A stretch of 64,000 bases of DNA from Octopus vulgaris (lineage: Eukaryota): assembly GCA_951406725.2 (NCBI GenBank), contig OX597824.1, forward strand, positions 71,362,001 to 71,426,000, read 5' to 3'. Made by a program: the position numbers and the translations under genes. A model generated the notes under the pieces. It did not search any database. It worked only from the letters and a program-made list of their open reading frames with translations, and was not told where the DNA came from. Below, piece by piece: positions 2,823 to 54,592 of this stretch (position 1 is the stretch's first letter; every line of letters begins with the position of its first letter).

Positions 2823-3173
2823 TATATATACATATGTATATATACACATATATATATAATAGAGATTATATGTCTACATATATATATATGTATGCATACA
2901 TTTATAGTTCAGATATACGTAGACATACATGTATATATAGCTCAGATATATGCATACATATATATATATAGTCGTATAAAAGATATGTATACATACATAC
3001 ATATATATATATACGATATAAATATATGTATACATACATAATATATGTGTATCTATATATATATATATATATAATACATATATATGCATTTGTGTGTGTG
3101 TGTATACGAGTGTATACATAATCTATATAAAACTAAAATGTTTTCTTCATTCAGACAGTGGAGAGAGACTCAC

Positions 3174-3376
3174 TTCAAGCCGAGCCCACGGAGATGCTGG
3201 CCGATTAATCGAACTACGTCTTGATCCGCCTGGGACATGGTTTTCAAAAGATGTTGTCTATCTTCTAGTGTGGCCACCTCACCATTTGCCGTGGCAGAAC
3301 AAGAACCGTTCTGTCGGGAAGTCGACGCTATCTCCTCGCTCTCTCCATTGTGCTGAGGGCAGCCATTCGACTGCAT
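3174..3376 (-). CDS. WDR26: WDR26 coding exon 1 (AUG-initiated part)
   Basis: MQSNG...SQADQDVVRLIGQHLRGLGL, resembling WDR26 MQANG...[20 protein letters not shown] (LisH motif). Strong donor AA|GTGAGT at 3173; phase matches exon 2. Confidence 0.93.
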
Positions 3377-3454
3377 GTTAGCGGCTGAGACTCGTTGCTT
3401 TTTGGGCGGTGGGGGAGAAACTCCACCGTCTTCTGATTCTGAAGACGATGCCAG
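3377..3454 (-). CDS. WDR26: Putative CUG-initiated in-frame N-terminal extension of WDR26 (26 codons)
   Basis: Open frame (L/M)ASSSESEDGGVSPPPPKKQRVSAAN directly upstream of the ATG. CTG context is gcaAttCTGG (A at -3, G at +4). No in-frame ATG back to the in-frame stop at 3596-3598. Confidence 0.6.
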
Positions 3455-3468
3455 AATTGCCGGATTGC

Positions 3469-3489
3469 TTAAGTAATTTGTTGTAGCAT
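3469..3489 (-). other. Short uORF (MLQQIT*) in the WDR26 5' leader
   Basis: ATG CTA CAA CAA ATT ACT TAA, weak context (T at -3, C at +4), out of frame with the CDS, ending 14 nt before the CTG. Confidence 0.45.
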
Positions 3490-3699
3490 TAATATCGCTG
3501 ATCAGTCGGACCCCTTTTCCACTATGTTTTTTTTTTCTTTGTTGTTGTTTGGTATATTGTGATGATGGTGTTGGTTGTTGTTGTTGTGGTGATTGTTATA
3601 TTGGGGTTTGTTGTTGCTCTTGTTATTTGTGTTGTTTGAGTGAAGACAAGCTCCGACCAGTGCGAACACAACACAAGTTGGTGACCAAATTTGTTTTGC

Positions 3700-7802: not shown

Positions 7803-8055
7803 CTTTATCTCTAAGTATAGAAGCAGATGAGTTACGTAAGATTCATTTTGAAGATCTGATCAAAGACTATGCAATTAAAAGAATAGAAAACTTTTCAAAT
7901 ATAAATAAAGTGGAAGTATAGAAAAATAAACATTATTTTCCATCTTACTGTTTGTTTTGTTAAATTTTGAAAAATAAAAATTTATTTTATGGTTTATGTA
8001 AGCCACCTAAATCTTTTTAGTGCTTAGGGCCTCTATAGGTCTTAATCCGGCCCTG
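7790..8055 (+). mobile_element. hAT (Tip100-like) transposon 3' remnant
   Basis: Translates LSLSIEADELRKIHFEDLIKDYAIKR, resembling a hAT dimerisation-domain C-terminus. Ends in the TIR-like ...ggtcttaatccggccctg. Confidence 0.6.
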
Positions 8056-8836
8056 ACAAGGATATAATGGGTGTGCTTTATGAGCGCTACAGAGTCATAC
8101 GAATTTTCATTAAATGTCTGTTTTTATAAGTATTCGTAAAGTCGCGCAGCTTAGTGGTTAGAGTGTTACACTCACGGTCGAAAGAGCGAGGTTTGGATTC
8201 CTGTCCTGGGCGATGCCTTGTGCTCTAAATTAAACCACTTCATTTCACGTAGCTCCAGTCCGCTCAGCTGTAAATAAGTAACCCTGAAACATACTTGCGT
8301 CCCATTCAATAAAGAAATTGTGATCTCGATTGCTTATATGCCATGAAAACTAGGTTATTGGCTCTGTGAGTCCAAGGAGACTTGGCTTTGCGGGTCCAAG
8401 ACTGAATTCATCCCCTCTCATAAACTCTAACAGTATCTAATTTTCCTTCAAATCGTACCCTTTGATCTTAAAAAAAAAGTTGGTTATCTGAATAGTGTAG
8501 TCCTAAACACATTACGTCTGATGTAGACATTGTAACACACTAGACCTAACATACATATATGTCTGTAGCTTATTGGATAAAAGCGTTATTAAGCTTAAAT
8601 TTAAAAATAAATGTTCGAAGTTGGAGTCCATTGTTAAGATACCTAATGACGATCGAAAACGAAATTGGTTGAAATGTTGTGCGTGCGTGCGTGTGTGTGC
8701 TGTTGATGTCATAAGGATCTATAAACTCCCAGGAGGACGTAAAGTAATTATTTTGAGGCGGATAGTGGATGTCGAAGCACATAAAGTTATAGATTATTGT
8801 ATGCCTTCAACTTTTTTTTTATCCAAAAGTGTTTTT

Positions 8837-9160
8837 GGATCTTTTCGGTTTGAACGGCAGTTTGTAACATAATTTCTAGTTAATTAAAAAAATTTAAACT
8901 TCGTATACTGGTAGAATGTGTTTATAAAACATCATTTTCTCTTGGCTTTATTGAGAAAATTCTATAATTTGTAACATATTTCGTCTTTAATTTCTTGCAT
9001 TTCGGCAATTTTAACCAATCAATTACCTCCATTGACATAAACAACATTCTGTGCCGCATGAATATGTCCCTCCTTTAAGAAACAGATTGGGTTTATTTAC
9101 ATTTGTGAAGAAAAAAAGATACCCTTCCCCCACCCCTAACCCTAACCCTAAAGGATATTG
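8837..9160 (+). mobile_element. GGATC-TIR MITE, 3'-truncated copy
   Basis: Starts ggatcttttcggtttgaacggcag, matches 10158 and 21066, and carries (ccctaa) repeats. Confidence 0.85.
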
Positions 9161-9164
9161 AACG

Positions 9165-9459
9165 AAACACCCTTCTTCCCAGAGGTGAATTATTCACACC
9201 CCAAAGAATCCCTCTCAACACATGGCTATGATGCTCTCCCACTACTTCTGTTCGTGATCAGAGGTACACATTTCGTCAGCCACTAAGGGACATGCTCAAC
9301 TGGTTAAGGTCAAGCAACTGACAAGCAAATCTGTGGTATTGAGCAGAATATTTGCTGTAGCCCATCTTTTATACCAAAACAAAACAATGTACATGATAAC
9401 ACTTCCAATCAGTTAAGATCAGAAGCCACGAGAGCCACTGCCTGGTGCTGCATCAGGGC

Positions 9460-9500
<41 letters not shown>
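9165..9500 (+). mobile_element. Unclassified retroposon 3' end with (TTA)n tail
   Basis: Near-identical to the reverse complement of ~41358-41640; ends in (tta)n. Confidence 0.7.
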
Positions 9501-10157
9501 TATTATGCATGCTTATGTGGTCCAATGTATGGACACCGATAAAACAAGTCTCACTGACCACTTTATGTTAAGAGCTGTTTTGGCCATATGCCAGATTGTG
9601 CAGCAGGACGGTCCAGCTGACTGTAAATAATGTGGAGAGTCAAACCAAGCTAAGAAGCACCACTGCCTTTGTATGCTCTGTACTACTTAATCTGTAAAGT
9701 TCAAAAGACCTTGCAAATTTCAATTCATATTGCAAAAAGCCGTGCGGAGAGGTAGGAAGATGGGAAACAACCACTGTGAGGTACACTTCGAAGAAATGGA
9801 AAAAAAAAATCCGCCTGCACCGAATTAAATATTTTACATTTGAGTTTATTTTCTTCTTCAGTTCTGATTTCCCTTTTGGTTCGATAAAACTACAAAATCA
9901 AATGTGATCGAGATATCGTTTTTCAGAAAACCTTTGTGACTTTGGATGTCAACACGATGGACGTAACCGATTCAGTAACAAACGAAAAATACCTTGTGAT
10001 GTTTAGTTACCTCCCTTTAACATCTACTTTCAACTTCGCCTGCTGTGTTTCTGTATAGATAAAATAAGTTACCAATCAAATATATTAGGATTGGTTAAAT
10101 CGACTACACACCTCCAGTGTCCTTCCTCAATAAAAATTTTAAATGGTTTGAGGGTCC

Positions 10158-10562
10158 GGATCTTTTCGGTTTGAACGGCAGTTTTTAACATAATTTCTAG
10201 GTAACTAAAAGATTTTAAATTTCGTATACTGGTAGAATGCGTTTATAAAACATCTTTTTCTCTTGGCTTTATTGAGAAAATTCTATAGCTTGTAAGATAT
10301 TTGTTATTTTTTTTCCTTCAATTTCTGCAATTTCAACCAATCAGTGACGTCTATTGAGGTAAAAAACATTCTGTGCCGTATGAATTTGTGAAGAAAAAAA
10401 GATACCCTTCCCCCCACCCCCAACCCTAAAAGATATTGAAATGCAATAGATCGATCCTAGGGTCATAATTATGGGTAACAATCGATACTAGGGCCATAAT
10501 TATGGGTGACAATTTCATATGACACCGCTAGAAAAAAACTGCCGTTCAAACCGAAAAGATCC
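10158..10562 (+). mobile_element. GGATC-TIR MITE, full length (405 bp)
   Basis: TIRs ggatcttttcggtttgaacggcagttttt / aaaaactgccgttcaaaccgaaaagatcc; non-coding. Confidence 0.92.
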
Positions 10563-10839
10563 TTCAAGTGTACAGAAAGTCTGAGAGGTGAAATGTAGAT
10601 ACTGAATGAATAATTTTAGTTCCACCTGCTCTCCGTGGGGCATGGACCAACGAAAGATTTCCACACAAGCCTTGTCATGAGCCATTACCTGGGACAGGTT
10701 CATATCTGCCAGCTTCTCCCCACCCCACAGTCCTCAACAGCTCTTGACACCTTTGCCTCGACTTCCACACGCTCTCTGTGACCTCTAACTGAAAGAGATT
10801 CTCACCCCTCTCTCCACGGGCATGCGTAGCACATGCTGA

Positions 10840-10960
10840 ACACCTTACACTGTCTCACGCTGTTGATTTTTCGTAGGTTACTCAGCCCGACCCATTTCAT
10901 GATTTCATCACTCATTATTTGGTCACGCCAAGAAATTCTCAATATGGTCTCGAGGCAACA
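10840..10960 (-). mobile_element. Old LINE RT C-terminal fragment
   Basis: Minus strand reads approximately CLETILRISWRDQI, resembling the CLRRIL.I.W.D.I motif of RTE/L2-type LINEs. Confidence 0.45.
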
Positions 10961-11515
10961 CCCTTAGTTGGATAATAACGCCCATTCATTGGTCTACTTA
11001 GTAACGGTTCAGTTACATAAACTTCGTTGTTGTTTGATTAGTTCTTCAGATAACTATATCTCAAATAGGCTGAACGTTCACGGTAGCAAGCTTAAAAAAA
11101 TACGTAAATCTCATACAGATATGTATTAGTTCCATTACTTCGTATGATAGCCATTGAATGTCGTTGTCATTGAAGTCAGTAAAAGTCGGTGACAAAGTAA
11201 CAAATTCATGTCCGTCATTGTTACTTCAACGATTCGTTTGTAGATTTCACTTGTTGCATGAGTGGTTGTGTCATATGTAACAATGTTCACGAATGCTATG
11301 GTCTGAGATTCATAATGTGTAGCTATTTGGCCGTATGTAATACTTCTTTTCTTTTGCATTAGTCGGTGAGGGTATATGTTTCTTTTACAGTGGTACCCTA
11401 CATAAGATCGAAGGGATGCAAGTTAAACATTTTTAAAACTTTTTTTTCACTCATCTGACGGATACAGATTCATACATGAGATACCACTGATTAGACAACG
11501 ATATGAAATGCAATA

Positions 11516-11747
11516 AGGCGGCGAGCTGGCAGAAACGTTAGCACGCCGGGCGAAATGCATAGCCGTATTTCATCTCCCGCTGCGTTCTGAGTTCAAATTC
11601 CGCCGAGGTTGACTTTGCCTTTCATCCTTTCGGGGTCGATAAATTAAGTACTAGTTACGCACTGGGGTCGATATAATCGCCTTAATCCGTTTGTCTGTCC
11701 TTGTTCGTCCTCTCTGTGTTTAGCCCCTTGTGAGTAGTAAACAAATA
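11516..11747 (+). mobile_element. tRNA-derived SINE, family A (young)
   Basis: GGCGGCGAGCTGGCAGAA head, GAGTTCAAATTCC B box, central gcctttcatcctttcggggtcgataaattaagta domain, 16-bp TSD gatatgaaatgcaata. Confidence 0.88.
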
Positions 11748-13128
11748 GATATGAAATGCAATAGCGATTTGGTGACGAATTATCAGATTTAATCTAAATG
11801 TCTGCGCTTCGAGTTCAATTCTTATCAGATTCAAATTTGGCTTTTATTCTTTTGGAGTTGATAATAAAATACCAATCTAGAATGGTGGATTGGCAGAAGT
11901 GTAAGAATCGTGAATTAAATACTATATGGTATTTATCCCGGCTATATGCGTGTTGAGTTCAAATCCCACCATGGCCTATTTGAGTGGTAGACTTAGTCCG
12001 TCACCCAGTTTAACAACACCGCTTTACATCATAGTTACCTTAGCGGACCTTACTCTGTTGAAAACATTCGAACTAGACCACGGTTTGAAGAAATCTTCCT
12101 CCTTTCATCCCACAATTCTCGGAGACCATGCAAAGAATCAGGGACACTGCATTCTTTCCTACCTAAAAAGAAAAAAAAAATACAAGGCTGTATTCGAGAA
12201 GACAAGAATCCTCAGATTGGAAACCATTCAGGCTTCCAATAAGGTAGCCGAGTAACAACACAATTTGGCTATAAGTAAGTGATTTTGTGCATACTGGTCA
12301 CTAGCTTGAAGTTAATTTCTTTTTCTTTTTTCTTTTAAAGTTGCCAACCAGTTTCACTGGAAACCACAAACCGAAGAAAACAAATAATACCAAGAAGAGA
12401 GAAAGAAAATAAAGAAAAAGAAAACAAAAGAAAAACAATCAAGAAAGAAAATTGCAAGAGGAATATTTAGGGTGGAATGCATACACGTGCCGAATCTCAT
12501 CCCTTTGAACGGCAGATCGAGAAATTAAAAAATACAACTTTAACACGAAATAACTTCGTAAATATAAACTTTTCTCAAAAACGCTACGAGTAAAAGATGT
12601 TTTATATGACACATCCTATCAGTATACGAAGTTTGAATGTGTTTAGTTACAAAATTATTTTCTAAATCTGCCGGTCAAAAGGTAAAGATCCCACGCGCGA
12701 TTTATTGGAAGTTGAATGCAATGTTATTATTTTTTAGGACGACATATTCTAATGGTATTCTTAGTACAGGGACAGCGAAGCCGGTGAGGCTAGGTGGATT
12801 TTGGGTGCTATAGGGTGCCCACAAAATTTTCGGTAAAAAAAGTAATAATACTGAGATACACGATCAATCGTCACGTTGATTAGTATTTAACCCCCCTAAA
12901 CATTTCTTTGACCTTCATTTTTCATTTAAACATACTACCGCCATCACCACCACTCAGCTGAACTTGCCTCGGTTGTTTCTACATCTATCACTCTTTGTTC
13001 GTCGTATGTAACGCATAATCAGTGTGTGTGTGTGTGTGTGTGTTGCGCGCGCGTGCGAGTCGTCTAAGACACCATAAGCCAGGGAAAAGATGCACTTGTA
13101 TATCTGACAATAGAGTGGGTATATTATC

Positions 13129-13354
13129 CGAAATATATAGTATTATATATCCACCACGGCTGATCTTACCAATCGGTTTCGCACAAGGAATACAATGGAG
13201 TGTTAGATAACAATCTGATATCCCCTTCCATATCGGTCAACTCTGACGAGCGTAAGGTTATGTAATCGGATTGTTACCTAACACTCCATCGTATTCCTTA
13301 CGCGAAACTGATTGGTAAGATCAGCCGTGATGGTTATATAATACTATATATTTC

Positions 13355-13355
<1 letters not shown>
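13129..13355. mobile_element. Penelope-like inverted-repeat hairpin with hammerhead motif
   Basis: Arms of ~90 bp. CTGACGA-GCGTAAGG...CCTTACGC-GAA-ACTGATTGGT-A at 13243-13317. Adjacent to (TA)n. Confidence 0.7.
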
Positions 13356-13411
<56 letters not shown>

Positions 13412-13549
13412 CACACACACACACACACACACAGTTAAATGAAGAAAAAAATGGAGAGTAGGAAGTTAACAATTATTTATTATTAACAAATTGGTCATCT
13501 TTACTTCTTACAACCGTTTCAATTAATATTCAATAACTTAATTACAAAT

Positions 13550-13858
13550 TATGCTGAGGTTCCTTTTGGCAATCCTTTGGTATTGGTACACGGCGTCATT
13601 CACCCACACAACCTACCCTCATGACAAAGAAGCCAGGCTAAAAAATAGGGTAAATATCGTCGTTTCCTCATACAGACACACTATTAACGAAAGATCGCAT
13701 CCCCACCACAAAAAAAAAAAAAAAAAAAAAAGCGGTGGTCTGGAGAAAGCGGCAATGCCCATGGCTTTTGCAGACCTTCATAGACTGGTGACATTCATGG
13801 TGTGCAGATGTTCATTTTGAATTATTTAACCATCCCTTTACGAGGTTAACAAATCCTC

Positions 13859-13899
<41 letters not shown>

Positions 13900-14084
13900 C
13901 AAAATGGGACAAGAACGCAAAACATCCGGACAACTAGGTGATACAAAAAGGGACAACAAAACATCCAGATAGTCGATACAAAAAAAAAAAACACGGACGG
14001 GCCATTCGAAGCCTTGTATCCTCAGTCAAGAACAGGCTCATCCTCGCAATTTCGGCTGATTAATATATATATATATATATGCAT

Positions 14085-14133
<49 letters not shown>

Positions 14134-15677
14134 ACACCACACGCATTCGTACATAGATTGCAAGATTCACTTTCAGCTTCATGCCTATTATTATTGGAGC
14201 AACAGGATATATCAACCCCGACTGAAGCACAGTATGGCTGAACTTGGGTTCTTGAGAAGAGAAGGCAAACCCTTAAATCATACACTACAAATGATGATAC
14301 ATGGGACTATAAAAATCTGCAAGACGTTAAGATTTAAAGGATGATGAGCAAAATGTAAATATTGTAATCCCAATATTTACATGCTGTTATGTATAGCTTT
14401 TATGAGTTGTGATCCACTGTTCCCCCCACCACCACCACCACCAAAAAAAATTATTTTATGTTCTCCCGAAATTTAAAAAATTCTTGTGTGCAGGAGTAGC
14501 TGTGTGGTAAGTAGCTTGCTTACCAACCACATGGTTCTGGGTTCAGTCCCACTGCGTGGCACCTTGGGCAAGTGTCTTCTACTATAGTCTCGGGCCGACC
14601 AAAGCCTTGTGAGTGGATTTGGTAGACGGAAACCGAAAGAATCCCGCCGTATATATGTATATATGCCCCTTTCTTCAGACCACCGGTCCTTTTTTGTGTG
14701 GTGGTGGTAGTGGTGATGGGGACGATTCTTCGTTAATATATATATATGTATGTGTGTGTATATATTTGTGTGTCTGTGTTTGTCCCCCCCCCCCCCAACA
14801 TCGCTTGGTTCAACAAAAGAGACCGATAGAATAAGTGCCAGGCTTACAAAGAATAAGTCCTGGGGTCGATTTGGTCGACAAAAGACGGTGCTCCAGCATG
14901 GCCTCAGTCAAATGACTGAAACAACTAAAAGAGTAAAGATGTGTGTGTTCATACACCCCAACACCTGGCCCTTCTCGTCGGGAACAGAAGATACTTCGGT
15001 CTCCGGCAATTATTGATAGCCCAAAAGTAAGAAGAAAAAAAAAGGGTGCACTGGAAAATTTGTTCTAACACCGAGGGCAGCGCTGCCACTGCATAGACAG
15101 ACATCCTCGTCCACATTTGGAAATGGATCACTTGACTGATTAGCATAAGTCATACTCCAGCAAATGGTTCGTAGATGTGCTGTTTCCTCTCCCCCACTTT
15201 TTTTTTTTTTTACTATAGTTGCAATGGCCTATGCTCTTGAAGCTGGCTGGGCTCATGCAACCTCCACTTAAGAACATTTCCGATTAGCTTACTTCTCATC
15301 GCCTGACCCTTGTTCTAATCCGCAAGCAATGCACTTATCGCTACTTCGAGTGTTTGTATCTCAGAATGTCGTCTCGCTGGAATTTCTTTCCGTAGGTGTT
15401 GACTTAGAATAGTTCAAAATGAACCTCTGCACACCATGAATATCACCATTCTATGAAAGCCTGCAAAAGCCATGGGCATTGCCCCTTTCTTCGGACCCCC
15501 CGTCCTTTTTTTTGTGGTGGTGATGTGGACGATCCTTCATCAATAGTGCGTCGGTACAGGAAAACGGCGATATTCACCCTCTTTTTTAGACTAGCTTCTT
15601 TGTCATGAGGGTAGGCTGTGTGGGTGAATGACGCCGTGTACCAATATCAAAGGGTTGCCAAAAAGAAAACCAGCATA
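13550..15677. mobile_element. Non-autonomous DNA transposon with ~270-bp TIRs
   Basis: 13550-13822 and ~15410-15677 are diverged reverse complements (e.g. ggtacacggcgtcattcacccacaca / tgtgtgggtgaatgacgccgtgtacc). The interior hosts a SINE and microsatellites. Confidence 0.75.
14490..14935 (+). mobile_element. SINE family B
   Basis: tRNA-like head with GGTTCAGTCCC, CORE-like ACCTTGGGCAAGT, and tail ...gcatggcctcagtcaaatgactgaaac. Confidence 0.85.
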
Positions 15678-15778
15678 CTTACACACAAGCATGTATTTAC
15701 AGCATTATTGATTCCTTTTAATAAAAGCTTATAGAGAACTACTTTAATATCATACGTACACTCCTCTCTCTTTCTCTC

Positions 15779-15849
<71 letters not shown>

Positions 15850-16201
15850 AACACGCGCGCACACATTCAAATACATGCAATGACATACACACATGTGAGT
15901 GGAAGTCATAGCCGGCCGCATCGTTTTTGTGTTATCGTGAGGTAATGTCTCTATACTGATTTTTTTTTTCATACTGGCACACGGCCATAAATTGGTAGGA
16001 GCAATTTAATCGAGTTATAGTCGATCGACTTAATTCCAGTACACGTGTGGCACTTATTTATTGGCTCTGGCAGGGGTTGTGGTGGAGATGACAACCTTGG
16101 CGGGATTTGAGTACAGAAATTTAATGGACGAAACTGTCATTTAGCTGTTTTCATCCCAAATGAAGGTATCTTACATGGACCCTCAAACCATTTAAAATTT
16201 T

Positions 16202-16639
16202 GGATCCTTTCGGTTTGAACGGCAGTTTTTTCTAGCGGTGTCATATGAAATTGTCACCCATAATTATGACCCTAGTATCGATCTATTGCATTTCAATCTG
16301 TTTTAGGGCTAGGGTTAGTTAGGGTTAGGGTTAGGGGGGGGGAAGGGTATCTTTTTTTCTTCACAAATGTAAATAAAACCCAATCTGTTTCTTAAACGAG
16401 GGACATATTCATACGGCACATAATGTGTTTTTTTTTACCTCAATGGACGTCATTGATTGGTTGAAATTGCAGAAATTGAAGAAAAAAAACAACAAATATC
16501 TTACAAACTATAGAGTTTTCTCAATAAAGCCAAGAGAAAAAGATGTTTTATAAACACATTCTACCAGTATACGAAGTTTAAAAGTGTTTAGTTAGGTGGA
16601 AATTATTTTTAAAAACTGCCGTTCAAACCGAAAAGATCC
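16202..16639 (-). mobile_element. GGATC-TIR MITE, full length, inverted relative to 10158
   Basis: Same TIRs; the interior is the reverse complement of 10158/21066; contains (ttaggg)n at ~16303-16335. Confidence 0.92.
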
Positions 16640-16996
16640 GAAATCTTTCGTTGGTCCATGTCCCGTGGAGAGCAGGTGGAACTAAAATTATTCATTCAGT
16701 ATCTACATTTCACCTCTCAGACTTTCTGTACACTTGAAATATGATTCAGTTAACGGCAAAAGATTTGGCTATTTTGTGGCATTCTATGACAGCTAGTTAC
16801 TTTGAACGTTCAGTTTTTCTTCGATATAGTTATCTCTCTTTATAGATCTAAGAAAGCTAACAAAGGTTTCCAACCGAAGTTGAGAACACCGTGCCTATTT
16901 TACGAATCAGCTCTGTAACCTTTCGATCGCCACTATATGTGTGTGTGTGTGTGTGTGTCGCGCGCGCGCGCGTTTGTGTGTGCGTGTATGTGCATG

Positions 16997-17027
<31 letters not shown>

Positions 17028-17035
17028 GCGTGTAT

Positions 17036-17065
<30 letters not shown>

Positions 17066-17066
<1 letters not shown>

Positions 17067-17960
17067 CTAACTGATGTACCCGGTAATTCCCGGGGGTAAG
17101 GATGTTCTATTGAAATGCTTTATTACTCTGGTATAAGAAAGCAATTTCGTTATAACTGCCACAAACGGTGTATTTTCCGTAACGCGAAAGTACGAAAAAC
17201 TGTCAGTTTGAGGAGGAAGAGATTGTTGGAGGTTGGCGAGAGAGGTTTTCGAAGGTTTCTGAGAAAGATTGTCAGAGGTCGGTGAGAGAGGTTGTCGGAG
17301 GTTGGCGATAGGCAAAGACATTATTCTGCTTAGCGAAGTCATCCGGGAAGTGTGTAACTGCTGTCATTCGCATAAAATCTCTTGTTTTACCGTGAGAAAA
17401 GTGCTGTTGAAATGTTAAGTGAAATTTGGCAATCGAGGATCGAATCCATGCTATGCCTGTATTAAGCCACTACAAATACGTTGTGGAATAAAAAATTTAT
17501 CAACTGTAATGGAAAAAGTGTAACTGTAAAAATGCAGAATTATCGGAGTAATGGGCATTCAAAAAATATGTATGCATAGAAATGTATGAATGAAGTCTTT
17601 AAGGTTTAAGATTCAAATTAAGGAAGTGCAATAATAATGTTTAGCAGTTCAAAACTGTGAGTAGTGAAATGCAGAATTAGGTCGGCTGATCGTAAAAATC
17701 AAATATTGATTGCTTCGCTAAAATCTGCTCGTGGTATGGGTTATTTCACTTGGGTTATTTAAATAAAATATTAGTAATATGTAGTAGAAAGAAGGATCCA
17801 TTGGAAGGGCCCTATTGTCGATTTTTTTTTCAACAATCTAAGTATGTCACGAGGTTTCCAGACATGAGTTCTACTCACATGTCTAACAAAGTATAAAAGT
17901 GATATTGTCAGCAAAAATTAGAAATAGGACACACAAAAAATCAATATTCAAAAGAAGGGG
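17066..17960 (+). mobile_element. Helentron/Helitron-like non-autonomous element
   Basis: Begins ACTAAC..CCCGGTAATTCCCGGG in (TA)n, like the 23120 and 40293 copies. Internal ~20-bp tandem repeats at 17205-17310. 3' end uncertain. Confidence 0.45.
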
Positions 17961-18488
17961 AGAAATTTATACAGTAGCAGCACGATAAAGTGATGGTTTG
18001 TTGCCAACTTAATGGGGCAGTCCCAGGAAAGGGAAGAATGCTACTGCTATTTAGCCCCAGGAAACACGGTTTCCAGTTGGCTATGACACATTTTCTGTGT
18101 TCTTGTTTTCAAAGATGGGAGATAAGCACCTCCACCCAGCAAGGCCAGCACTCAGAGTCTAGTTTCAGAGTCATTGCACATCATCAGTTTCGAGTAGCAT
18201 GGCTTGCTAGCGGTCGATGCTTATTCACCTTTAAAAACATAGATTTCAAGTGAAATACATTGATGATGAGCAATGACTCCGAAACTAGTCTCTGATTGCT
18301 GGTTTGGCTGGGTGGAGGTGTTTATTGCCCCTCTTTGAAAACATAAAGACACAGGAAATGTGTCATGGCCAACTGGAAACTGTGTTTCCTGGGGCTAAAT
18401 AGCAGTAGCATTCTTCCCTTTCCTGGGACTACTCCATTAAGTTGGCAACAAATCATCACTTTATCGGGCTGCTACTGTATAAATCTCT
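17961..18488. mobile_element. Penelope-like inverted pseudo-LTR hairpin
   Basis: Inverted arms of ~225 bp, each ending in a degenerate hammerhead (YTGATGA...GAAACTAGWC). Confidence 0.7.
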
Positions 18489-18543
18489 CTGAGAGATTTA
18501 GAAATGTAATATTTCTAATCATATATATATATAGATAGATATG

Positions 18544-18644
<101 letters not shown>

Positions 18645-18828
18645 TTAAGGGCTCCTAAATAAGGATGCCAAGTGCTAGGGACACAAAAAAGGGATAAATT
18701 TAGGAGCCCTTAATTATATTTCTATATGAATAATATTTTTCATATGAATAATATTTGTCTAATGACTAATTCGTCTTTTGTGCTGGGCCACTGGTAGTAA
18801 TCTATGTTATTACCCTTTTTTTATTATA

Positions 18829-18932
<104 letters not shown>

Positions 18933-18952
18933 TGTATGTATATATAGATATG

Positions 18953-19117
18953 CCCACTATACTCACAGAGTGGTTGGCGTTAGGAAGGGCATCCAGCTGT
19001 AGAAACACTGCCAGATCAGACTAGGCCTGGTGCAGCCTTCTGGCTTCCCAGATCCCAGTTGAACCGTTCAACCCATGCTAGCATGGAAAGCGGATGTTAA
19101 ACGATGATGATGATGAT
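18953..19117 (+). mobile_element. RTE-associated 3' tail element (family D), (GAT)n tail
   Basis: gttggcgttaggaagggcatccagctgtagaaac...cccatgctagcatggaaagcggatgttaaacgatgatg; recurs near 38885, 42170, 44740, 50495 and 63350. Confidence 0.75.
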
Positions 19118-19301
19118 ATATATATATATATTTAAAATCCCCAAAAATGAAGAACAAACAAGAAAAATAAAGAACAATGTGAGGACATGGTACATCAAAG
19201 TATTAGCAGACGCTCAAGGAAGGATGTATATGTATGTAAGTATATATATGTGTATATATGTGTGTGTGTGTTTGTGTGCGTGTGTATGTATGTATGTATG
19301 C

Positions 19302-19391
<90 letters not shown>

Positions 19392-19865
19392 GAAGGGAGA
19401 CATGTATCTACACGCACACGCAAACGTACGTGTGTATGTGTTATGAGTAATGATATCTATGTAATACTGTTCAGTATCGTACATTTTGCATACACCACCC
19501 TCTTATGAACAAATACATTCATACATACGAGACTGGTTTACAACTTTATTTTACTGACACGAAAATCCACCAGCCCGCCCTTTATTTTTTATCTTTTCAT
19601 GAGGAAATAACGTTTTTAATAAAAGCTTTCCGATATTTCTCCAATGTAAATTCATACTTAATCTCGTATTAACGGGTACTGTCGTCTCGGAGAGGCGGGT
19701 AAGTGTTTTCCATCCCCGTTCCATCCACTGCTATAAATAGATTAAACCAAGGGCGTGGCCCAAAAGTTTGGCTTCTCTCGTCAAAGACTATCACTCTATC
19801 AACATAACATGTTATGAAGTCTCTCATCTAATTTATTATGTCTTCTATTTATGGATCTATCTATC

Positions 19866-19903
<38 letters not shown>

Positions 19904-21065
19904 ACTATTTTTCTATATATGTATATATTTTTACTCTTGTGTGTGCGCGTGTGTATGTGTGCATCAATATATATTTATATGTGTAAATGTTTTTCTGTGG
20001 GTCGATCTATTCCGCCATCTCATCCATTTTCTATTGATCTTTTCATCAGCCCATCTTTCTGTGATCATTTTAGTTTTTTCTCTCACCGTCCCATATTCAT
20101 TCACAATACTTCACCTTTTCTCTTTTTATGGTTCTTTTTCTTTGTTTTTATTTTCTCTATGTAGCTTTCTTTCTGTCTTCTCACACGCATATGTAAATAT
20201 ATCTGCTGTCTTTGCTTTTTCTGTTTCATTTTATGCTCACGTAGTACTTATCGTTTCTCTTTCCCCTTCCCTGATTTCTGCTCTGTCTTCCCTCCCATCT
20301 TGTATTCCTTTCACTCAGTTTTTGTGGGTTGCAAAGTCTAGTCACCTATCTATATCTTTTTCACACTTATATTTCCTACTTCTGTATCCAACCTGTCTCC
20401 TCGATGTCACTTCTATATTCCCCCACTTTTGAACACCATCTCCCTTTCTGATATACTTCAATGCTCTCAAGTTAATATATGTAAATCGATAATTCAGGTA
20501 CACACTTACACGTAACTTATACACACTTACACAATTACTGGTGTATTAACAGTGTTTTGTTTCGTTGCTATATTATACTATAAAACATCTATCTACAGAT
20601 GTTTGACCAACTATATGTTACAAGGAACCTATACATTACGTCTATATAATACAATACCCTCGCAGACAGAAAACGAGAGAACGGCTGTATATGCCGCACA
20701 TTTCAACTAGTTTCGTCAGCAGCTGTGCTCCGAGTGCGTCGTCAAGCCTCTGTCCTCGCACTTCCTCAACAGTTTCATGCTACGTTTGCTTGTTTCCTCT
20801 TATTGGCTTCTTCAATACGTTCTTTCCAGGACATTGTAAATTCCACAATGACCATTTGTTTAGTTGCTTCTGAGTTGATAATCAAATCTGGCTGGAGTGA
20901 TGTTACTACAATGTGCTGCAGGAACTTCATTCAGCTGCATACCCAGATTGATCTTCAGCTGCCAGTCAAAGGCTGTGGAGTGGAGATTCATTCTTGCTTT
21001 TGGTTGTAGTTAGAACTTCTCTCCAACTAACTGACTTTTGGGGAGGGCATTGCAGTTTTTGTTTG

Positions 21066-21482
21066 GGATCTTTTCGGTTTGAACGGCAGTTTTTAAAAAT
21101 AATTTTCACGTAACCAAACTCTTTTAAACTTCGTATACTGGTAGAATGTGTTTATAAAACATCTTTTTCTCTTGGCTTTATTGAGAAAATTCTATGGTTT
21201 GTAAGATATTTGTTGTTGTTTTTTTCTTCAATTTCTGCAATTTCAACCAATCAATTACGTCTATTGAGGTAAAAAAAAGTTCTGTGCCGTATGAATATGT
21301 CCCTCCTTTAAGAAACAGATTGGGTTTATTTACATTTGTGAAGAAAAAAAGATACTCTCCCTCCCCTAACCCTAACCCTAAAATAGATTAAAATGCAATA
21401 GATCGATACTAGGGTCATAATTAAGGGTGACAATTTCATATGACACTGCTAGAAAAAACTGCCGTTCAAACCGAAAAGATCC
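21066..21482 (+). mobile_element. GGATC-TIR MITE, full length, with 8-bp TSD
   Basis: Same TIRs; flanked by tttgtttg at 21058-21065 and 21483-21490. Confidence 0.92.
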
Positions 21483-21907
21483 TTTGTTTGTGCTGAGTAA
21501 AACAGGAAGTTGCCTCGTTCTTGCTCCTGTTGTGAAGATTAGCTGAACTTCATAGAATATCATAGACATCTTGGACAAAGAACAAACATGATGGAAATGT
21601 GCCTGTATAATGTCTGGCCAGTTAATCTTGCACAACAGTACAATCTCCTACCTCATCCATGCTACCTGTTGCTGATCTCTCCCATCCTACACACTCCTCT
21701 TCCATATCTCAGACGTCTTCCTGAATAAGATTGTGTTGTTCCTTCGCCTGGGTCTTTAGAAAATAGCCTAAGCCTACTCTATTAACAGACATGATGTCAA
21801 TCAGTTCCTTTTGCCTCTGATGTGACTCTGCTACCTCCACTTTCTTCCTTTCCCAATTCTCACCCTAATGACAGGTGATGATATTTCCTGGTCCCTGGAG
21901 TCCCGAT

Positions 21908-22312
21908 ACTCTTTTACTTGTGTCAGTCATTTGACTGTGGCCATGCTGAAGCACCGCCTTTAGTCGAGTAAATCGACCCCAGGACTTATTCTTTGTAAGC
22001 CTAGTACCTATTCTATTGGTCTCTTTTGCTGAACTGCTAAGTTACGGGGACATAAACACACCACCATCGGTTGTCAAGCGATGTTGGGAGGACAAACACA
22101 GACACAGAAACACACAGACACATACATATATATGTATATACATATATACGATGGGCTTCTTTCAGTTTCCATCTAACCAAATCCACTCACAAGGCTTTGG
22201 TCGGCCCGAGGCTATAGTAGAAGACCCTTGCCCAAGGTGCTACACAGTGGGATTGAACCCGGAACCATGTGGTTGGTAAGCAAGCTACCTACCACACAAC
22301 CACTCCTACACC
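21908..22312 (-). mobile_element. SINE family B
   Basis: Full-length reverse complement of the 14490 family. Confidence 0.85.
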
Positions 22313-22960
22313 TATACTGTAGAAGTTCTCTTGTTCATGCCACTATAGACTCTTTAGTGATACTACTAAATAGTAGCTGCAAGATGTTACTGTACGATAC
22401 AGTGCTGTATAGCTAAACCTGTGGGAAAGGGTCAATCACTTTCAGAGAAAACCACTGGTCTTCTTTCAAGGGACTCAGCAGGTGTCAGAGGGCATTGGGC
22501 AGAATGGATTATTGATAGAAACAAGTTTTGAATCTATCAAACACTCAAGGTCATTATTGGACTTTTGAAAGGTGGTAGAGTCATAGAATCATTCAAGATT
22601 GAGTCAAAGAACTTCCCAGACTCTTGACTAGTTTCTCCGTAATGAGTGTGTGTGTGTGTGTGTGTGAAAGAGAAAGGTAATAACCATTCCAGATAATTAT
22701 AATCAAAATTCTAATTACCATACACAGGGGTTGGATAGGGGTTGGATAGGAGGCTTTCTGCATTCCACCTCAATTAACTTGGCCACTCTGTTCTGGCAAG
22801 GGCAAAAGGATTAATGAAAATGGTATGGGCCTGTTACTATTTTCCTCTCCCAAGCTCATGATAGTTTAATGTTTCTGAACCAGAAATGACATTCAACATG
22901 TAGCAAGGATAGCAATCCAGAATCAGGAACTCAAGAAATACTACCCTTCTGCACTATACA

Positions 22961-25495: not shown

Positions 25496-25560
25496 TAAAT
25501 ACATAAAAAATATACACACAGTATACATGTGAATATATATATATATATACATCCTCTTAA

Positions 25561-26507
25561 TCTCAAGCTGTACCTCGAAATAAAGAGGTCAGATCCTGTA
25601 CACTATAGATCTCTATTGCAAGCAGACCTGGACACAATGCAGCAGTGGATCATGGACTGGCAACTCAAGCTGGCTGTGGACAAATGTACCACCATGCATT
25701 TTGGGAGGAGAAACCCAGCGTCCACCTACTCCCTCCACAACACTAGTCTCAAAAATTCTTCATGTGAACGTGACCTGGGTGTTATTGTCGACAGTGATTT
25801 GCATTGGACAAAACACATCGCTAAAATTGTCAAGAAGGCTGAGGGTGTCTTGGCATCACTCACCAAATCCTTTGTGAGCCACTCTCCGACTATCTATCTG
25901 CGGCTTTATATAGCTTTGGTTAGACCCCACCTGGAATTTGCATCACCGTTCTGGAACCCCCATCTTGCCCAGGATATCAATCGTTTGGAAGCTGTTCAGT
26001 GACGTGCAACCAAAAGAATACCCTCCATCAGGCTTTTGCCATATCCTGAACGCCTTACTTCCCTGGGCATGGACACATTGAAATTCCGACGTCTGGCAGC
26101 TGACTTGGCAGACACCCATAAAATCATCAACCATCGTACAAACAATAACTCTGAGCACCTTTTCAAACTCCACCTGTCTAACACCCGTGGACATATTTAC
26201 AAAGTCAGAAAACAGCACAGCTCCCATGACTTCAGGAAACATTTTTTCAGGCTGAGAGTTGCTGAAGCATGGAACAAACTGCCGGCATCAGTTGTTAGTA
26301 GTCGGAGCACTGCATCCTTCAAAACTTCCGTGCTTTCTGAGATTCGCAAACACTACACCTGATTTTCTCCCCTCCATACACACACAAGCATGTATCTGAC
26401 TCATGCATTGTTCGCTTTCCAGACATTTATACATTACTGCATATACTCCGACAAGTTGTGGTGCACCTGAGCACTGTATACAATAATTTCATTATATTAT
26501 ATTATAT
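25561..26507 (+). mobile_element. 5'-truncated CR1/Jockey-group LINE (RT C-terminus plus 3' UTR)
   Basis: ORF motifs LQADLD..QW..WQLKL...KC, ERDLGV, LVRPHLEFA, FF.LRV...WNKLP; one in-frame stop near 26000; (attat)n tail; TSD atacatcctcttaa on both sides. Confidence 0.9.
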
Positions 26508-31219: not shown

Positions 31220-32780
31220 AGTTTTCTTTCTACTACAGGCATAAGGTCTGAAATTTTGAGAGAGTGGGTAGTTGACTACTTTGACCCCAGTGTTCAACTG
31301 ATACTTATTCTATCAACCCTGAAAGGTTGAAAAGCAAAGATGACCTCAGTGAAATTTAAACTCAGCATGTAAGTCAGAAGAACTGCCTGCCACTTAGTAT
31401 TTTGTCTGGTGTGTTAACAATTCTGCCAGCACACTGCCTTTATTGTCCTTGTAATACATGATAAACAACATTGACACACTGAAGCTTTAGGCATTCCGTC
31501 AGTTACGACAAAAAGTGTTCTGGTTGATCCGATCAATGGAACAACCTGCTCATGAAATGTAACATGCAAGTAACTGAGCCTTCCATCAACATGGATACCC
31601 TTAATGTAGTTCTCATGGAGATTCAGCATGACACAGAATGTGATAAGGCCGGCCCTTTGAATTACAGGTACTACTCATTTTTGCCAGCTGAGTGGACTGG
31701 AGAAACATGAAATAAAGTGTTTTCTCTCAAGGACACAACACAGTCAGGAATTGAACTCATGACCTTATGATTATGAAGAGAATACTCTAACTTCTAAGTT
31801 TTTTTCACCTGGATTCACTCACAAGATTTCAATGAGTCCAGGGCTGTAGTAGAAGACATTTGCCCAAGATATCACACAGTAGGACTGAAACCCAACTCAT
31901 ATGAATGGGAAGCAAATTTCTCAGTCACTCAGCCATGCATGCGCCTGTAGCCACACCTGTACCTACTTGTATACTTGTTATATAGGGATTTCAAATTTTG
32001 ACACAAGGCCAGCAATTTTGGGGGAGGGAGTAAGTTGGTTACATTGACCCCTGTTCCACTGGTACTTCTTTTATCAAACCCAAAAAGATGAAAGACAAAA
32101 TCAGCCTCAGCAGAATCTGAACTCAGAACATAAAGACAAAATGCCACAAAATATTTTGTCCAGCATACTAACGATTCTGCCAGCTTGTGGCCTTATACTT
32201 ATTATATATTGGTTTCAAATTTTGGCACAAGGCCAGTAATTTTGGGAGAGGGGTAAGTTGATTATCTTGACCCCAGGAGTCAATTAGTACTTATTTTATC
32301 GACCCCAAAAAGATGAAAAGTTGACTTCGGCAGAATTTGAACTCAGAATGTAAAGATGGACAAAATGCTATTAAGCATTTTGTCTGGCATGCTAATGATT
32401 CTGCCAGCTTGCTGCCTTCAAATTTTGGCACTAGGCCAGCGATTTTAGGGGAGGGGTAAGTCAATTACATTGACCCCAGTGTTCAACTGGTACTTAATTA
32501 ATGACTCCAAAGGGATGAAAGGCAAAATTGACCTCAGCAGATATACTTGTTATATATTAGAAACAGTTATTATTTAAAACAATAGATTGGCAGAATCATT
32601 TGAACATTGGACAAAGTACGTTGCCACATTTATTTCGGCTCTTTCCCTACTGAATTCAAATCCTGCCATGGGTGGCAGCTTTCATCCTTCTGGAGTCAAT
32701 AAAATAAAGTGGTAGTAAACTTGGATTAACATTACAGTGTAATCTGTCACTCAAAAATTTCTAACCTTGGGCCTATGTTA
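31220..32780. mobile_element. Cluster of older SINE copies, mostly family A
   Basis: Repeated ggcacaaggccagcaatttt...gaccccag...gatgaaaggcaaagttgac...gaatttgaactcagaa, mostly on the minus strand. Confidence 0.75.
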
Positions 32781-33019: not shown

Positions 33020-33375
33020 TAATAATATAATAATGATGAAATTATTGTATACAGTGCTCAGGTGCACCACAACTTGTCAAAAGTGCGTATAAAGCATATG
33101 CAGTAATATACAAATGTTTGGAAAGTGAACAGTGTATGAGTCAGGTACATGCTTGCGTGTGTATGGAGGGGAGAAAATCAGGTGTAGTGTTGGCGAATCT
33201 CAGGAAGCATAGAAGTTTTGAAGGATGCAGTGCTCCGACAACTAACAACTGATGCCGGCTGTTTATTCCATACTTCAGCAACTCTTAGCGTGAAAAAATG
33301 TTTCCGAAAGTCATGGGAGCTGTGCGGTTTTCTGACTTTGTAAACATGTCCACGGGTGTTAGACAGATGGAGTTT
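33020..33375 (-). mobile_element. CR1/Jockey LINE 3' fragment
   Basis: Reverse complement of ~26165-26500; HDFRKHFFTLRVAEVWNK. Confidence 0.88.
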
Positions 33376-35500: not shown

Positions 35501-35984
35501 ATGTATGTATGTATGTATGTATGTATGTATGTATGTATGTATGTATGTATGTATGTATGTATGTATGTATGTATGTATGTATGTATGTATGTATGTATGT
35601 ATGTATGTATGTATGTATGTATGTATGTATGTATGTATGTATGTATGTATGTATGTATGTATGTATGTATGTATGTATGTATGTATGTATGTATGTATGT
35701 ATGTATGTATGTATGTATGTATGTATGTATGTATGTATGTATGTATGTATGTATGTATGTATGTATGTATGTATGTATGTATGTATGTATGTATGTATGT
35801 ATGTATGTATGTATGTATGTATGTATGTATGTATGTATGTATGTATGTATGTATGTATGTATGTATGTATGTATGTATGTATGTATGTATGTATGTATGT
35901 ATGTATGTATGTATGTATGTATGTATGTATGTATGTATGTATGTATGTATGTATGTATGTATGTATGTATGTATGTATGTATGT
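35501..35984. repeat. (ATGT)n microsatellite, ~121 units
   Basis: Uninterrupted tetranucleotide array followed by (AGGT)n. Confidence 0.97.
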
Positions 35985-36262
35985 AGGTAGGTAGGTAGGT
36001 AGGTAGGTAGCAAGTGACAAACGCTTTTATACGTTTCTATTTATACTTCAACTCTATACTACACTATATCATATTTCTTACCCAACTTCACTCACGACAT
36101 TTCACTATTTTACCCTATGATTTATACACTCTGGCAGTTGTTCTCTATATAATTTTCCTAAAACGATGGGATCTATCCCTATATTTTAAGGACAACTTAC
36201 AACACTATAATTTTAACAAAAAATTAAATGAAACAAAAATTGTTTTAGAATTTATTCGTATA

Positions 36263-38259: not shown

Positions 38260-39458
38260 TCTACCTCTTATACCTACTTTTTCTCCTAATACATTTACAC
38301 ATTGTCATACATACACACTGACACTACATATCCATTGCAACATGCTGGCTACTGAAAGCCATCTGGTTTAGAGCTCCCATTATTGCAGCAATTTCGTTAC
38401 CTCTTGATTTTTTTAAACTCTGGTGCCAGGCCACAGATGTGGTGGGAGGTAGTACAATTGATTGAATTAACTCTAGTTTACAAATGTTATTCGTTTCATT
38501 GACCAAGCAGGAATGAAAGTTTAGCGATGAAGCTGGCTACAGTGAATAGAAGGTTCTGAAGTCACCACTTTAGTAGGTTTTTGGCCCACTAATTTAATGT
38601 TGATACCACCTTAACGTTGTTCGTTGGTTGTTAGTTTAATAAAAGTTGTTCTTACGTCAAGTTGACTCCGTGGTGGTTGGTTGAAAATGACGATGTCGGC
38701 GAGGTAGATGTTGATAGCAGTGTGTGACAGACAGACGTTGCCAACTGTGTTCGTGTGTTCGATAGCTCTTTGGTGATATACAAAGACGGACGGACTTCAA
38801 CGGTGGTTGGTAGGCAGAGACAGATTGACAAACTCGATGGTGGTTGGTAGTGAATTTTATTCACAGCTGTGTGGGTTAAGTACACTCTTGGACTGGTTGG
38901 CATCACAGCTGTAGAAACCATGCCAGATCAGACTGGAGTCTGGTGCAGCCTTCCAGCTTGCCAACCCTAGTTAAACTGTCCAACCCATGCCCGCATGGAC
39001 AACAGACGTTAGATGATGATGATGATGATGACGATTAAGAAAGAAGAAGAAGAAGAAGAAGAAGAAGAAGAAGAAGAAGAAGAAGAAGAAGAAGAAGAAG
39101 ATGATGATGATGATGATGAGGGAGTGAAAGATTCAAGTAACACTCTACAAAGGAATTCGTTTTCGGAGGGGCAAATGATACTGAACCAGATACTGGGTTC
39201 AGTGCTGTCTTCTGACTCATTGAATCATGTCAAACTGTTTAAACCCATGCCAGCATGGAAAATGGACATTAAATGATGATGATCATGACTATGATAATGA
39301 TGACTATGATAATGATGATTACATTTACACATCAACGAAAATACACTATTAATATAGAAGTTATGCAGAAGCCTATAAGTGGTTGCTCGACCTCTAAAAA
39401 CAGCAGCCAAATTTACTTGAAATCAAACTTTGTTGTCTTGAATAGAAACACATTGGAT

Positions 39459-39620
39459 AATAATTGCAGTGTGGAAGGTGTTTATAAGCCATTTAAGAAA
39501 CACACAAAAACTGTTAGATTCATTTCAACATTTAAATTTAATTTGTCAAAATATTTTCATCGCTTTGAGACTACAACCTGTTTCTTAAATGGCTTATAAA
39601 CACCTTCCACGTTACAATTG
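39459..39620. repeat. Inverted-repeat hairpin (Penelope-like)
   Basis: gtggaaggtgtttataagccatttaagaaaca / tgtttcttaaatggcttataaacaccttccac. Confidence 0.7.
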
Positions 39621-42795: not shown

Positions 42796-42824
42796 ATAAT
42801 AATAATAATAATGATAATAATAAT

Positions 42825-54337: not shown

Positions 54338-54404
54338 ATAAAACGGTAAGATAACAAAAGAAAGAGACCTCAATATTATGTAAATAGAGGAAATTTATCT
54401 ATAC

Positions 54405-54552: not shown

Positions 54553-54592
<40 letters not shown>

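What the first reader, a model, noticed from the sequence alone, without database searches (positions are those of the whole stretch)
10133..16738. ~5.6-kb inversion between inverted MITE copies with swapped, very long flanking duplications
Seen: the order is A(10133-10157, 25 bp)-MITE(+)-B(10563-10661, 99 bp) ... revcomp A(16177-16201, identical)-MITE(-)-revcomp B(16640-16738, 3 mismatches). Knowledge: exchanged target-site duplications are the signature of an inversion caused by ectopic recombination between oppositely oriented TE copies; inverted duplications also arise from staggered-break inversions. The oddity is that the duplications are 25 and 99 bp, while the copy at 21066 has an ordinary 8-bp TSD. 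Inference: either this family makes variable long TSDs, or the inversion arose by aberrant transposition with MITE copies at both staggered breaks. The event lies ~6-13 kb upstream of the WDR26 promoter.
Basis: partly seen in the sequence, partly recalled or inferred. Interest (0 to 1): 0.75.

Follow-up and report, generated by a model that had tools for sequence, protein, structure and literature searches.

The report
Transposon-bounded inversion with long swapped duplications
A 5.6-kb stretch of octopus DNA appears to have been flipped between two copies of a small DNA transposon, and those copies are flanked by swapped 25- and 99-base duplications instead of the usual 8, hinting that this transposon sometimes cuts its target with unusually long staggers.

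Summary
Observation confirmed. A (25/25) and B (96/99) are swapped around two inverted copies of a ~420-bp MITE with 29-bp GG…CC TIRs, and a third copy has a plain 8-bp TSD. The host is Octopus (WDR26 exon).

Internal evidence supports a real inversion. Undoing it restores an old head-to-tail repeat dimer through A (85 of 4000 random joins do as well) and brings the only two copies of a ~110-bp motif into direct orientation around B. All four junctions sit exactly at TIR tips with zero microhomology. The duplications cannot be told apart in age from the insertions.

The two copies are not sister copies (93%, seven indels), and no chimeric switch is visible, so ectopic recombination is plausible but not shown.

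Best reading (0.4): two independent insertions, each leaving a long target duplication, then a crossover near the element ends. Main rivals: alternative transposition by an 8-bp enzyme, or concerted cross-joined insertion. No gene was found inside. This is a new variant of a known kind, and only a genome-wide flank survey can decide it.

The parts
10133..10157 (+). Duplication A, left copy (25 bp); lies at the tail-head joint of an old repeat dimer
10158..10562 (+). MITE copy M1 (405 bp), 29/29 perfect TIRs, 40-bp internal deletion, 31-bp tandem duplication near 3' end
10563..10661 (+). Duplication B, left copy (99 bp); continuous with the LINE-like relic that follows it
   Evidence: LINE label recalled, not confirmed
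10662..16176 (.). Inverted core (5515 bp): repeats and microsatellites, no gene found
10613..11000 (-). Decayed LINE-like 3' end (stops in frame); approximate limits
   Evidence: translation; resemblance recalled; weak Atlas lead PF20049 at score 0.82; 0 hits
11019..11112 (-). Old motif, copy 1 (core 11048-11092); becomes a direct repeat of copy 2 when the inversion is undone
15965..16176 (+). Decayed copy of the ~210-bp dispersed repeat; first unit of the split dimer
10049..10132 (-). Decayed copy of the same repeat; second unit of the split dimer
16177..16201 (-). Duplication A, right copy, identical
16202..16639 (-). MITE copy M2 (438 bp), TIRs 28/29, closest to the 21066 copy (95.2%)
16640..16738 (-). 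Duplication B, right copy (96/99)
16760..16869 (+). Old motif, copy 2 (core 16791-16835)
21058..21490 (+). Reference MITE copy 21066-21482 with exact 8-bp TSD
8837..9151 (+). 3'-truncated MITE copy, shares diagnostic sites with M1; joined to another repeat
12492..12691 (-). Older 200-bp relative (76-79% identity), flanks match 6 of 8
3170..3595 (-). WDR26 coding exon with the N-terminus (context only)

Best explanation
The ancestral order was X-A-Z'-B'-Y with one copy each of A and B (supported here). Two MITEs from different lineages of one GG...CC, normally 8-bp-TSD family inserted independently and in opposite orientation (different lineages: shown). At each insertion the two strand transfers of the transposase landed 25 and 99 bases apart instead of 8; gap filling duplicated A around M1 and B around M2 (inferred). 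Later the two ~93%-identical inverted copies recombined, within the 5' TIR or the last ~110 bases, flipping 5.6 kb and swapping the duplications (inferred). The event is probably neutral: no gene was found in the segment.
For: Swapped pattern exact. Undoing the inversion gives each element perfect (25/25) or near-perfect (96/99) direct flanks.

All 4 junctions end exactly at intact TIR tips, with 0 bp of microhomology against the native neighbour in 4 of 4. This is what transposase strand transfer gives, rather than repair-mediated capture (established knowledge).

Age: A+B differ at 3 of 124 sites and the TIR pairs at 1 of 87 (Fisher p=0.64); M2 vs the 21066 copy differ at 20 of 415 (p=0.32 vs A+B). 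Duplication at insertion time is therefore allowed.

Ancestral continuity at A: a profile from 5 natural dimers aligns across the undone join as one hit (model 6-200, 12.1 bits) but stops at position 63 in today's join; 85 of 4000 random joins reach that score. At B: the motif pair scores 58, 0 of 1000 shuffles reach it, and its partner is the best place among 1012 tiles, next best 42.

Precedent for DDE elements with long variable repeats: IS1549 and IS1634, 8-514 bp (PMC2266710, passage).
Against: The only intact family member away from the breakpoints has 8 bp, and the older relative has a decayed 8 bp, so two long staggers 5.6 kb apart need a high rate.

No chimeric switch between the copies, unlike the Galileo inversion (PMC2775673, passages); under a crossover model an invisible crossover has about a 36% chance. 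The test is weak: only two outside copies, one truncated, and 5 of the 7 grouping sites cluster in columns 33-56, while the site at column 348 sits at that copy's junction with another repeat.

No paper on long TSDs for a eukaryotic TIR element turned up in searches. The continuity tests are post hoc and use low-scoring hits. The age comparison has wide intervals (A+B 0.5-6.9%).
Confidence: 0.4

Rival explanations
1. An ordinary 8-bp enzyme plus alternative transposition. Hybrid-element insertion (ends from two chromatids or two nearby copies inserting 17 and 91 bases away) or unequal exchange between neighbouring insertions made A-M-A and B-M-B, or made one duplication together with the inversion. 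The 'long TSDs' are then flanking duplications.
For: 8-bp TSD at 21066. Precise TIR junctions. Non-chimeric, different copies are expected. PMC2775673 (passage) states that aberrant transposition of copies at separate sites gives an inversion with duplications or deletions. PMC3744419 (passages) shows duplications from reversed Ac ends. Five family members or relatives lie within 13 kb, so ends are dense here.
Against: By my own reasoning, one hybrid event gives one long duplication plus one 8-bp TSD, not two long ones, so at least two such events are needed. The new Ac duplications are 8 kb or longer. That P-element flanking duplications can be very short is recalled; I saw only the citation.
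Confidence: 0.25
2. Concerted cross-joining. Two insertions were under way at once at two widely staggered target cuts and the broken ends exchanged partners, so the inversion, both duplications and both insertions arose in one event without any crossover.
For: It explains why both rare features coincide, and why no chimeric switch is seen. An analogue exists for L1: exchange between two insertion sites gives inversions and translocations with TSD-like duplications (10.1101/2024.12.14.628481, passages).
Against: It still needs 25- and 99-base staggers, and two excised elements acting 5.6 kb apart in one cell. The L1 case rests on free DNA ends from retrotransposition; a DDE transpososome holds both ends together (established knowledge).
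Confidence: 0.2
3. Host staggered breaks made the inversion with inverted duplications (Ranz model). The MITEs were captured at, or later inserted into, both junctions.
For: A-B ... A'-B' is exactly the staggered-break signature; duplications of 46 bp to 1.9 kb are reported (PMC1885836, passages).
Against: Later insertion would add its own 8-bp TSD, and none is seen at M1. The flanks of M2 match at 6 of 8 (chance 0.8-1.5% per pair, several pairs examined), but each variant is identical to its own copy in A or B. Capture of two full-length elements to the base at both junctions without microhomology is improbable.
Confidence: 0.07
4. One element duplicated itself while inverting the segment (replicative or same-site hybrid insertion), and the copies then diverged.
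For: Substitutions alone do not exclude it: 25 of 372 vs 3 of 124, Fisher p=0.076.
Against: Seven indels separate the copies. M2 is closer to the 21066 copy (95.2%) than to M1 (93.3%). Four-way sites group M1 with 8837 and M2 with 21066 in 7 of 9 cases, p=0.008.
Confidence: 0.04
5. The flip is an assembly error through the inverted MITE pair; the true sequence is A-M-A ... B'-M'-B'.
For: Inverted repeats can mis-orient an enclosed segment (established knowledge). No reads were available.
Against: The copies are only 93% alike and the longest identical run is 41 bp. The window has no N. The long duplications would remain to be explained in any case.
Confidence: 0.04

Closest known systems
Galileo-generated inversion 2z3 of Drosophila buzzatii (PMC2775673, passages)
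   Same: Two TIR-element copies in opposite orientation at the breakpoints, with exchanged flanking duplications.
   Different: There the duplications are the family's normal 7 bp and both copies are demonstrably chimeric. Here they are 25 and 99 bp against a normal 8, and no chimerism is detected.
Staggered-break inversions with inverted duplications (PMC1885836, passages)
   Same: Unique sequence from both breakpoints is duplicated in inverted orientation, at a similar size scale (46 bp and up).
   Different: That model has no transposon at the joins. Here a full-length MITE sits to the base in both.
IS1549 and IS1634 long variable direct repeats (PMC2266710, passage)
   Same: DDE-type elements whose flanking duplications vary from 8 to hundreds of bases between copies; that paper says no mechanism had been proposed.
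   Different: They are bacterial and autonomous. Here the element is an animal MITE, three intact copies were seen, and no transposase is identified.
Merlin superfamily MITEs (PMC8101967, passages and supplement search)
   Same: Terminal GG, TIR of 29 bp within the 24-462 range, 8-bp TSD. Merlin is abundant in Octopus bimaculoides (191 sequences), and PMC10294476 (passage) finds it almost restricted to cephalopods among the molluscs analysed.
   Different: No transposase is linked to this TIR, and the 12-base TIR core had 0 hits in 11 supplementary files. Zisupton, Novosib and MULE are not excluded. Long TSDs do not appear in the passages I saw.
Alternative transposition of P and Ac/Ds (PMC3744419, passages)
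   Same: Duplications and inversions that end exactly at element termini.
   Different: One event leaves one normal TSD. Here both duplications are long.
Long TSDs of LINEs: Dualen, median 900 bp, and R9, 126 bp (PMC9977147, passages)
   Same: Variable, long duplications from widely spaced nicks.
   Different: These are retrotransposons. The element here has two intact TIRs and no tail, unlike retro-DNAs, which lack TIRs (PMC11195612, passages).

Membership tests
Merlin MITE | Terminal 5'-GG on both TIRs | tested here: met
   3 of 3 intact copies; definition from PMC8101967
Merlin MITE | TIR 24-462 bp | tested here: met
   29 bp
Merlin MITE | 8-9-bp TSD | tested here: inconclusive
   Exact 8 bp in 1 of 3 intact copies; 25 and 99 bp in the other 2; 6 of 8 in the older relative
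Merlin MITE | Autonomous partner with DDE_Tnp_IS1595 and the same TIR | not testable with these tools
   No eukaryotic genome collection; TIR had 0 matches in GTDB genomes, 0 papers, core absent from the Merlin paper's supplements
TE inversion by ectopic recombination | Two homologous copies in opposite orientation at the breakpoints | tested here: met
TE inversion by ectopic recombination | Exchanged flanking duplications | tested here: met
   Pattern met, length atypical
TE inversion by ectopic recombination | Reciprocally chimeric copies | tested here: inconclusive
   No switch in 23 sites, p=0.74; 125 of 347 shared bases lie outside the informative span
TE inversion by ectopic recombination | Non-inverted chromosomes carry single A and B | not testable with these tools
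   Only internal proxies
Staggered-break inversion | Inverted duplications from both breakpoints | tested here: met
Staggered-break inversion | No inverted repeat pair at the junctions | tested here: not met
   Full MITE in both junctions
Same-site hybrid or replicative inversion | The two flanking copies are identical at origin | tested here: not met
   25 of 372 substitutions, 7 indels, different nearest relatives
IS1549/IS1634-like long variable repeats | Duplication length varies widely between copies | tested here: met
   8, 25 and 99 bp in the 3 intact copies, two of them after undoing the inversion
IS1549/IS1634-like long variable repeats | Holds family-wide at unrearranged sites | not testable with these tools
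   One 64-kb window only
Retro-DNA (retrotransposed DNA element) | Loss of TIRs | tested here: not met
   Both TIRs intact in both copies; definition in PMC11195612

The most novel reading that the evidence does not exclude
An octopus Merlin-like TIR family whose transposase routinely makes target duplications of variable length, from 8 to about 100 bp. It would be an animal counterpart of bacterial IS1549/IS1634, produced by uncoupled strand transfer of the two ends, and the same uncoupling could cross-join two insertions into an inversion. Standard fixed-TSD MITE finders would miss such copies.
Probability: 0.3. Interest if true: 0.75.

Novelty: new variant of a known kind. Interest (0 to 1): 0.5.

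Why it matters
TSD length is treated as a fixed, diagnostic property of eukaryotic cut-and-paste superfamilies (established knowledge; see also PMC5499845, passage). Two copies with 25- and 99-bp duplications joined precisely to intact TIRs, beside a sibling with 8 bp, point either to a variable-stagger transposase or to repeated alternative transposition in the wild. The locus also combines two inversion signatures usually treated as alternatives: TE copies at both breakpoints and long inverted duplications. It is one locus with no gene found inside, so its value lies in being cheaply testable across octopus assemblies.

Tried and rejected
Unfiltered self-BLAST was swamped by microsatellites and its output was cut; it was repeated for 8000-22500 with low-complexity rows dropped, leaving 111 rows.

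BLAST of the undone junctions against the window found no repeat spanning either one. Only the profile search showed the dimer at A.

The LINE label for B and the adjacent sequence could not be confirmed: 0 homologues, 0 Pfam families, 0 among 1.84 billion representatives, and only a weak Atlas lead. Paper search was read as a listing only.

TIR search in GTDB genomes: 0. TIR in papers: 0. Rfam 8000-22500: 21 matches, all below gathering score and mostly microsatellite-driven.

Survey of other inverted-repeat elements: 13 chosen elements and 34 automatic pairs. Only 21066 had an exact flank duplication of 8 bp or more, and none had a long one. This is weak, since element ends were not curated.

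Folding of A, B and their contexts gave nothing notable (no shuffle control). The 6-of-8 flank match of M2 as a hidden TSD was rejected: each variant equals its own copy in A or B, and several pairs were examined. The 31-bp duplication in M1 as a crossover scar was rejected: M2 has no reciprocal deletion. A composite 8837-10562 element was rejected: its flanks share 2 bp. PMC12368964 (abstract and outline only) and PMC8277862 (passages) were not informative for long duplications.

Unchecked: other octopus haplotypes or species, reads, and metagenome and viral collections. Supplements of the bioRxiv paper and the figure S1 schemes of PMC2775673 were not seen and could bear on which alternative-transposition paths are already described.
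Full report
OBSERVATION. The structure is exactly as described. Reading left to right: A (10133-10157), MITE M1 (10158-10562, +), B (10563-10661), a 5515-bp core, reverse-complement A (16177-16201, 25 of 25), MITE M2 (16202-16639, -), reverse-complement B (16640-16738, 96 of 99). A and three pieces of B have no other copy in the window at up to 6 substitutions. A TIR search at up to 5 mismatches gave 9 hits belonging to five elements: M1, M2, an intact copy at 21066-21482 with an exact 8-bp TSD, a 3'-truncated copy at 8837, and an older 200-bp relative at 12492-12691 with flanks matching 6 of 8.

CONTEXT. An 88-residue part of the exon at 3170-3595 (-) is 100% identical over 76% of its length to an Octopus vulgaris WDR26-like protein, so the host is Octopus; the species is not established. 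The structure is 6.8-13.4 kb upstream of the likely ATG. Five open frames from the inverted interval were among 12 scanned against Pfam; four had no family and one a sub-cutoff hit. Not every ORF was scanned. Rfam gave only sub-threshold matches. I found no gene in the segment.

IS IT AN INVERSION? No outgroup was available, so I tested whether undoing the flip restores older features. At A: an old ~210-bp dispersed repeat (SINE-like; label recalled) has 40 profile hits in the window and often forms head-to-tail arrays; 8 of 11 close same-strand neighbours are 179-233 bp apart. One decayed copy ends just inside the right breakpoint and another begins at the left A. Undone, they lie head to tail about 220 bp apart, with A at the joint. 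A profile of 5 natural dimers aligns across the undone join in one hit (model positions 6-200, 12.1 bits) and stops at position 63 (7.6 bits) in today's join. Of 4000 random joins, 99 gave any spanning hit and 85 scored as high. At B: the first 190 bases beyond the right B match a stretch ~360-450 bases inside the left breakpoint (score 58; 0 of 1000 shuffles; best place among 1012 tiles, next 42). Undone, these become direct repeats ~580 bp apart enclosing a decayed LINE-like 3' end, as an old long target duplication or tandem duplication would. The LINE label is recalled and was not confirmed. Both tests are post hoc and low-scoring, and plain BLAST found no spanning repeat, but they are independent and agree. 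I put a real inversion at about 0.9.

WHO MADE THE JOINS? All four junctions fall exactly at intact TIR tips, with no microhomology to the native neighbour in 4 of 4. That fits transposase strand transfer and fits repair capture poorly (established knowledge). The duplications are not distinguishable in age from the insertions: 3 of 124 differences against 1 of 87 between TIR pairs (p=0.64) and 20 of 415 between M2 and the 21066 copy (p=0.32); intervals are wide.

ARE THE COPIES SISTERS OR CHIMERAS? Not sisters. M1 and M2 differ at 25 of 372 aligned sites and 7 indels; M2 is 95.2% identical to the 21066 copy and 93.3% to M1; 7 of 9 four-way sites group M1 with 8837 and M2 with 21066. Substitution counts alone do not exclude sisterhood (p=0.076). 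No reciprocal switch is seen: 17 sites where M1 is the odd copy and 6 where M2 is, best split p=0.74 by permutation. A crossover in the 5' TIR or the last ~110 bases (125 of 347 shared bases, including runs of 37, 29 and 24 identical bases) would be invisible. Ectopic recombination is therefore allowed, mildly disfavoured, and not shown.

MECHANISM. Best (0.4): two independent insertions with 25- and 99-base staggers, then a terminal crossover. It needs three steps, and only the long stagger is unusual. Rivals: an 8-bp enzyme with at least two alternative-transposition events (0.25); concerted cross-joined insertion (0.2); host staggered breaks with later MITEs (0.07); self-duplication of one element (0.04); assembly flip (0.04). 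I found no route by which one event of a strict 8-bp enzyme yields both long duplications; this is reasoning, not a computation. Shown: geometry, precise joins, distinct copies, a normal 8-bp sibling. Supported: the inversion and its polarity. Inferred: how the duplications and the flip arose.

COMPARISON. It looks like the Galileo 2z3 inversion in orientation and swapped flanks but lacks demonstrated chimerism and normal TSD length (PMC2775673, passages). It has the double inverted duplication of staggered-break inversions but with elements in the joins (PMC1885836, passages). Long variable duplications are described for bacterial IS1549/IS1634 (PMC2266710, passage) and for LINEs (PMC9977147, passages); cross-joined insertions are described for L1 (10.1101/2024.12.14.628481, passages). 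The element works like a Merlin MITE (GG ends, 29-bp TIR, 8-bp TSD; Merlin is abundant in Octopus; PMC8101967, passages), but membership is unproven without a transposase; PMC10294476 (passages) also lists Zisupton and Novosib in cephalopods, and MULEs have 8-10-bp TSDs (PMC5499845, passages). Searches (listings, plus the passages cited) turned up no report of long TSDs for a eukaryotic TIR element or of this family. The library lacks most subscription papers and repeat databases were not available, so absence from print is not established.

VERDICT. A real and odd structure, a new variant of TE-bounded inversions. Interest 0.5. If the family routinely makes variable long duplications (probability 0.3), interest is 0.75. 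A genome-wide flank survey and one outgroup alignment would settle it.

Noticed in passing
window 8837-9449: The truncated MITE copy is fused to another repeat (9151-9449, 91% to 41356-41652) within a short stretch where both read alike, suggesting a microhomology-mediated deletion of the MITE's 3' end.
   Followed up: partly
window 16194-16201 and 16640-16647: The two flanks of M2 match at 6 of 8 bases, so the start of A resembles the end of B (chance 0.8-1.5% per pair). Probably coincidence or target preference.
   Followed up: partly
window 31979-32690, 40528-41180, 42817-43270, 44125-44625: An old ~210-bp repeat forms head-to-tail dimers and trimers; 40 profile hits in the window.
   Followed up: partly
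window 13547-13826 and 15408-15680: A second inverted pair (82% over ~280 bp) inside the inverted segment, with a third fragment at 14664-14738; no obvious TIR or TSD.
   Followed up: partly
window 13120-13365, 17960-18489, 39456-39625, 51169-51370, 51760-51914, 54393-54564, 63019-63204: Several palindromic MITE-like elements, mostly with AT-rich ends; none showed a long flank duplication.
   Followed up: partly
window 58370-61526 (-): LTR-retrotransposon pol relic spread over several frames; Pfam RT_RNaseH, Integrase_H2C2 and rve on the 546-aa frame.
   Followed up: no
window 48811-49344 (-): Mariner-type transposase fragment, Pfam PF01359 E=9e-32. A Tc1/mariner-like relic also seems to lie at 36451-37941 (recalled resemblance; 0 Pfam families for the one frame scanned).
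   Followed up: no
window 25499-26362; 33148-33375 and 37126-37354: LINE reverse-transcriptase-like fragment (weak RVT_1, E=0.035), and a 93% identical 229-bp pair elsewhere.
   Followed up: no
window 35501-36009: About 500 bp of nearly pure tetranucleotide microsatellite.
   Followed up: no
window 10158-10562: M1 carries a 40-bp deletion and a 31-bp tandem duplication near its 3' end that the other two intact copies lack; all copies have telomere-like hexamer repeats of variable number.
   Followed up: partly
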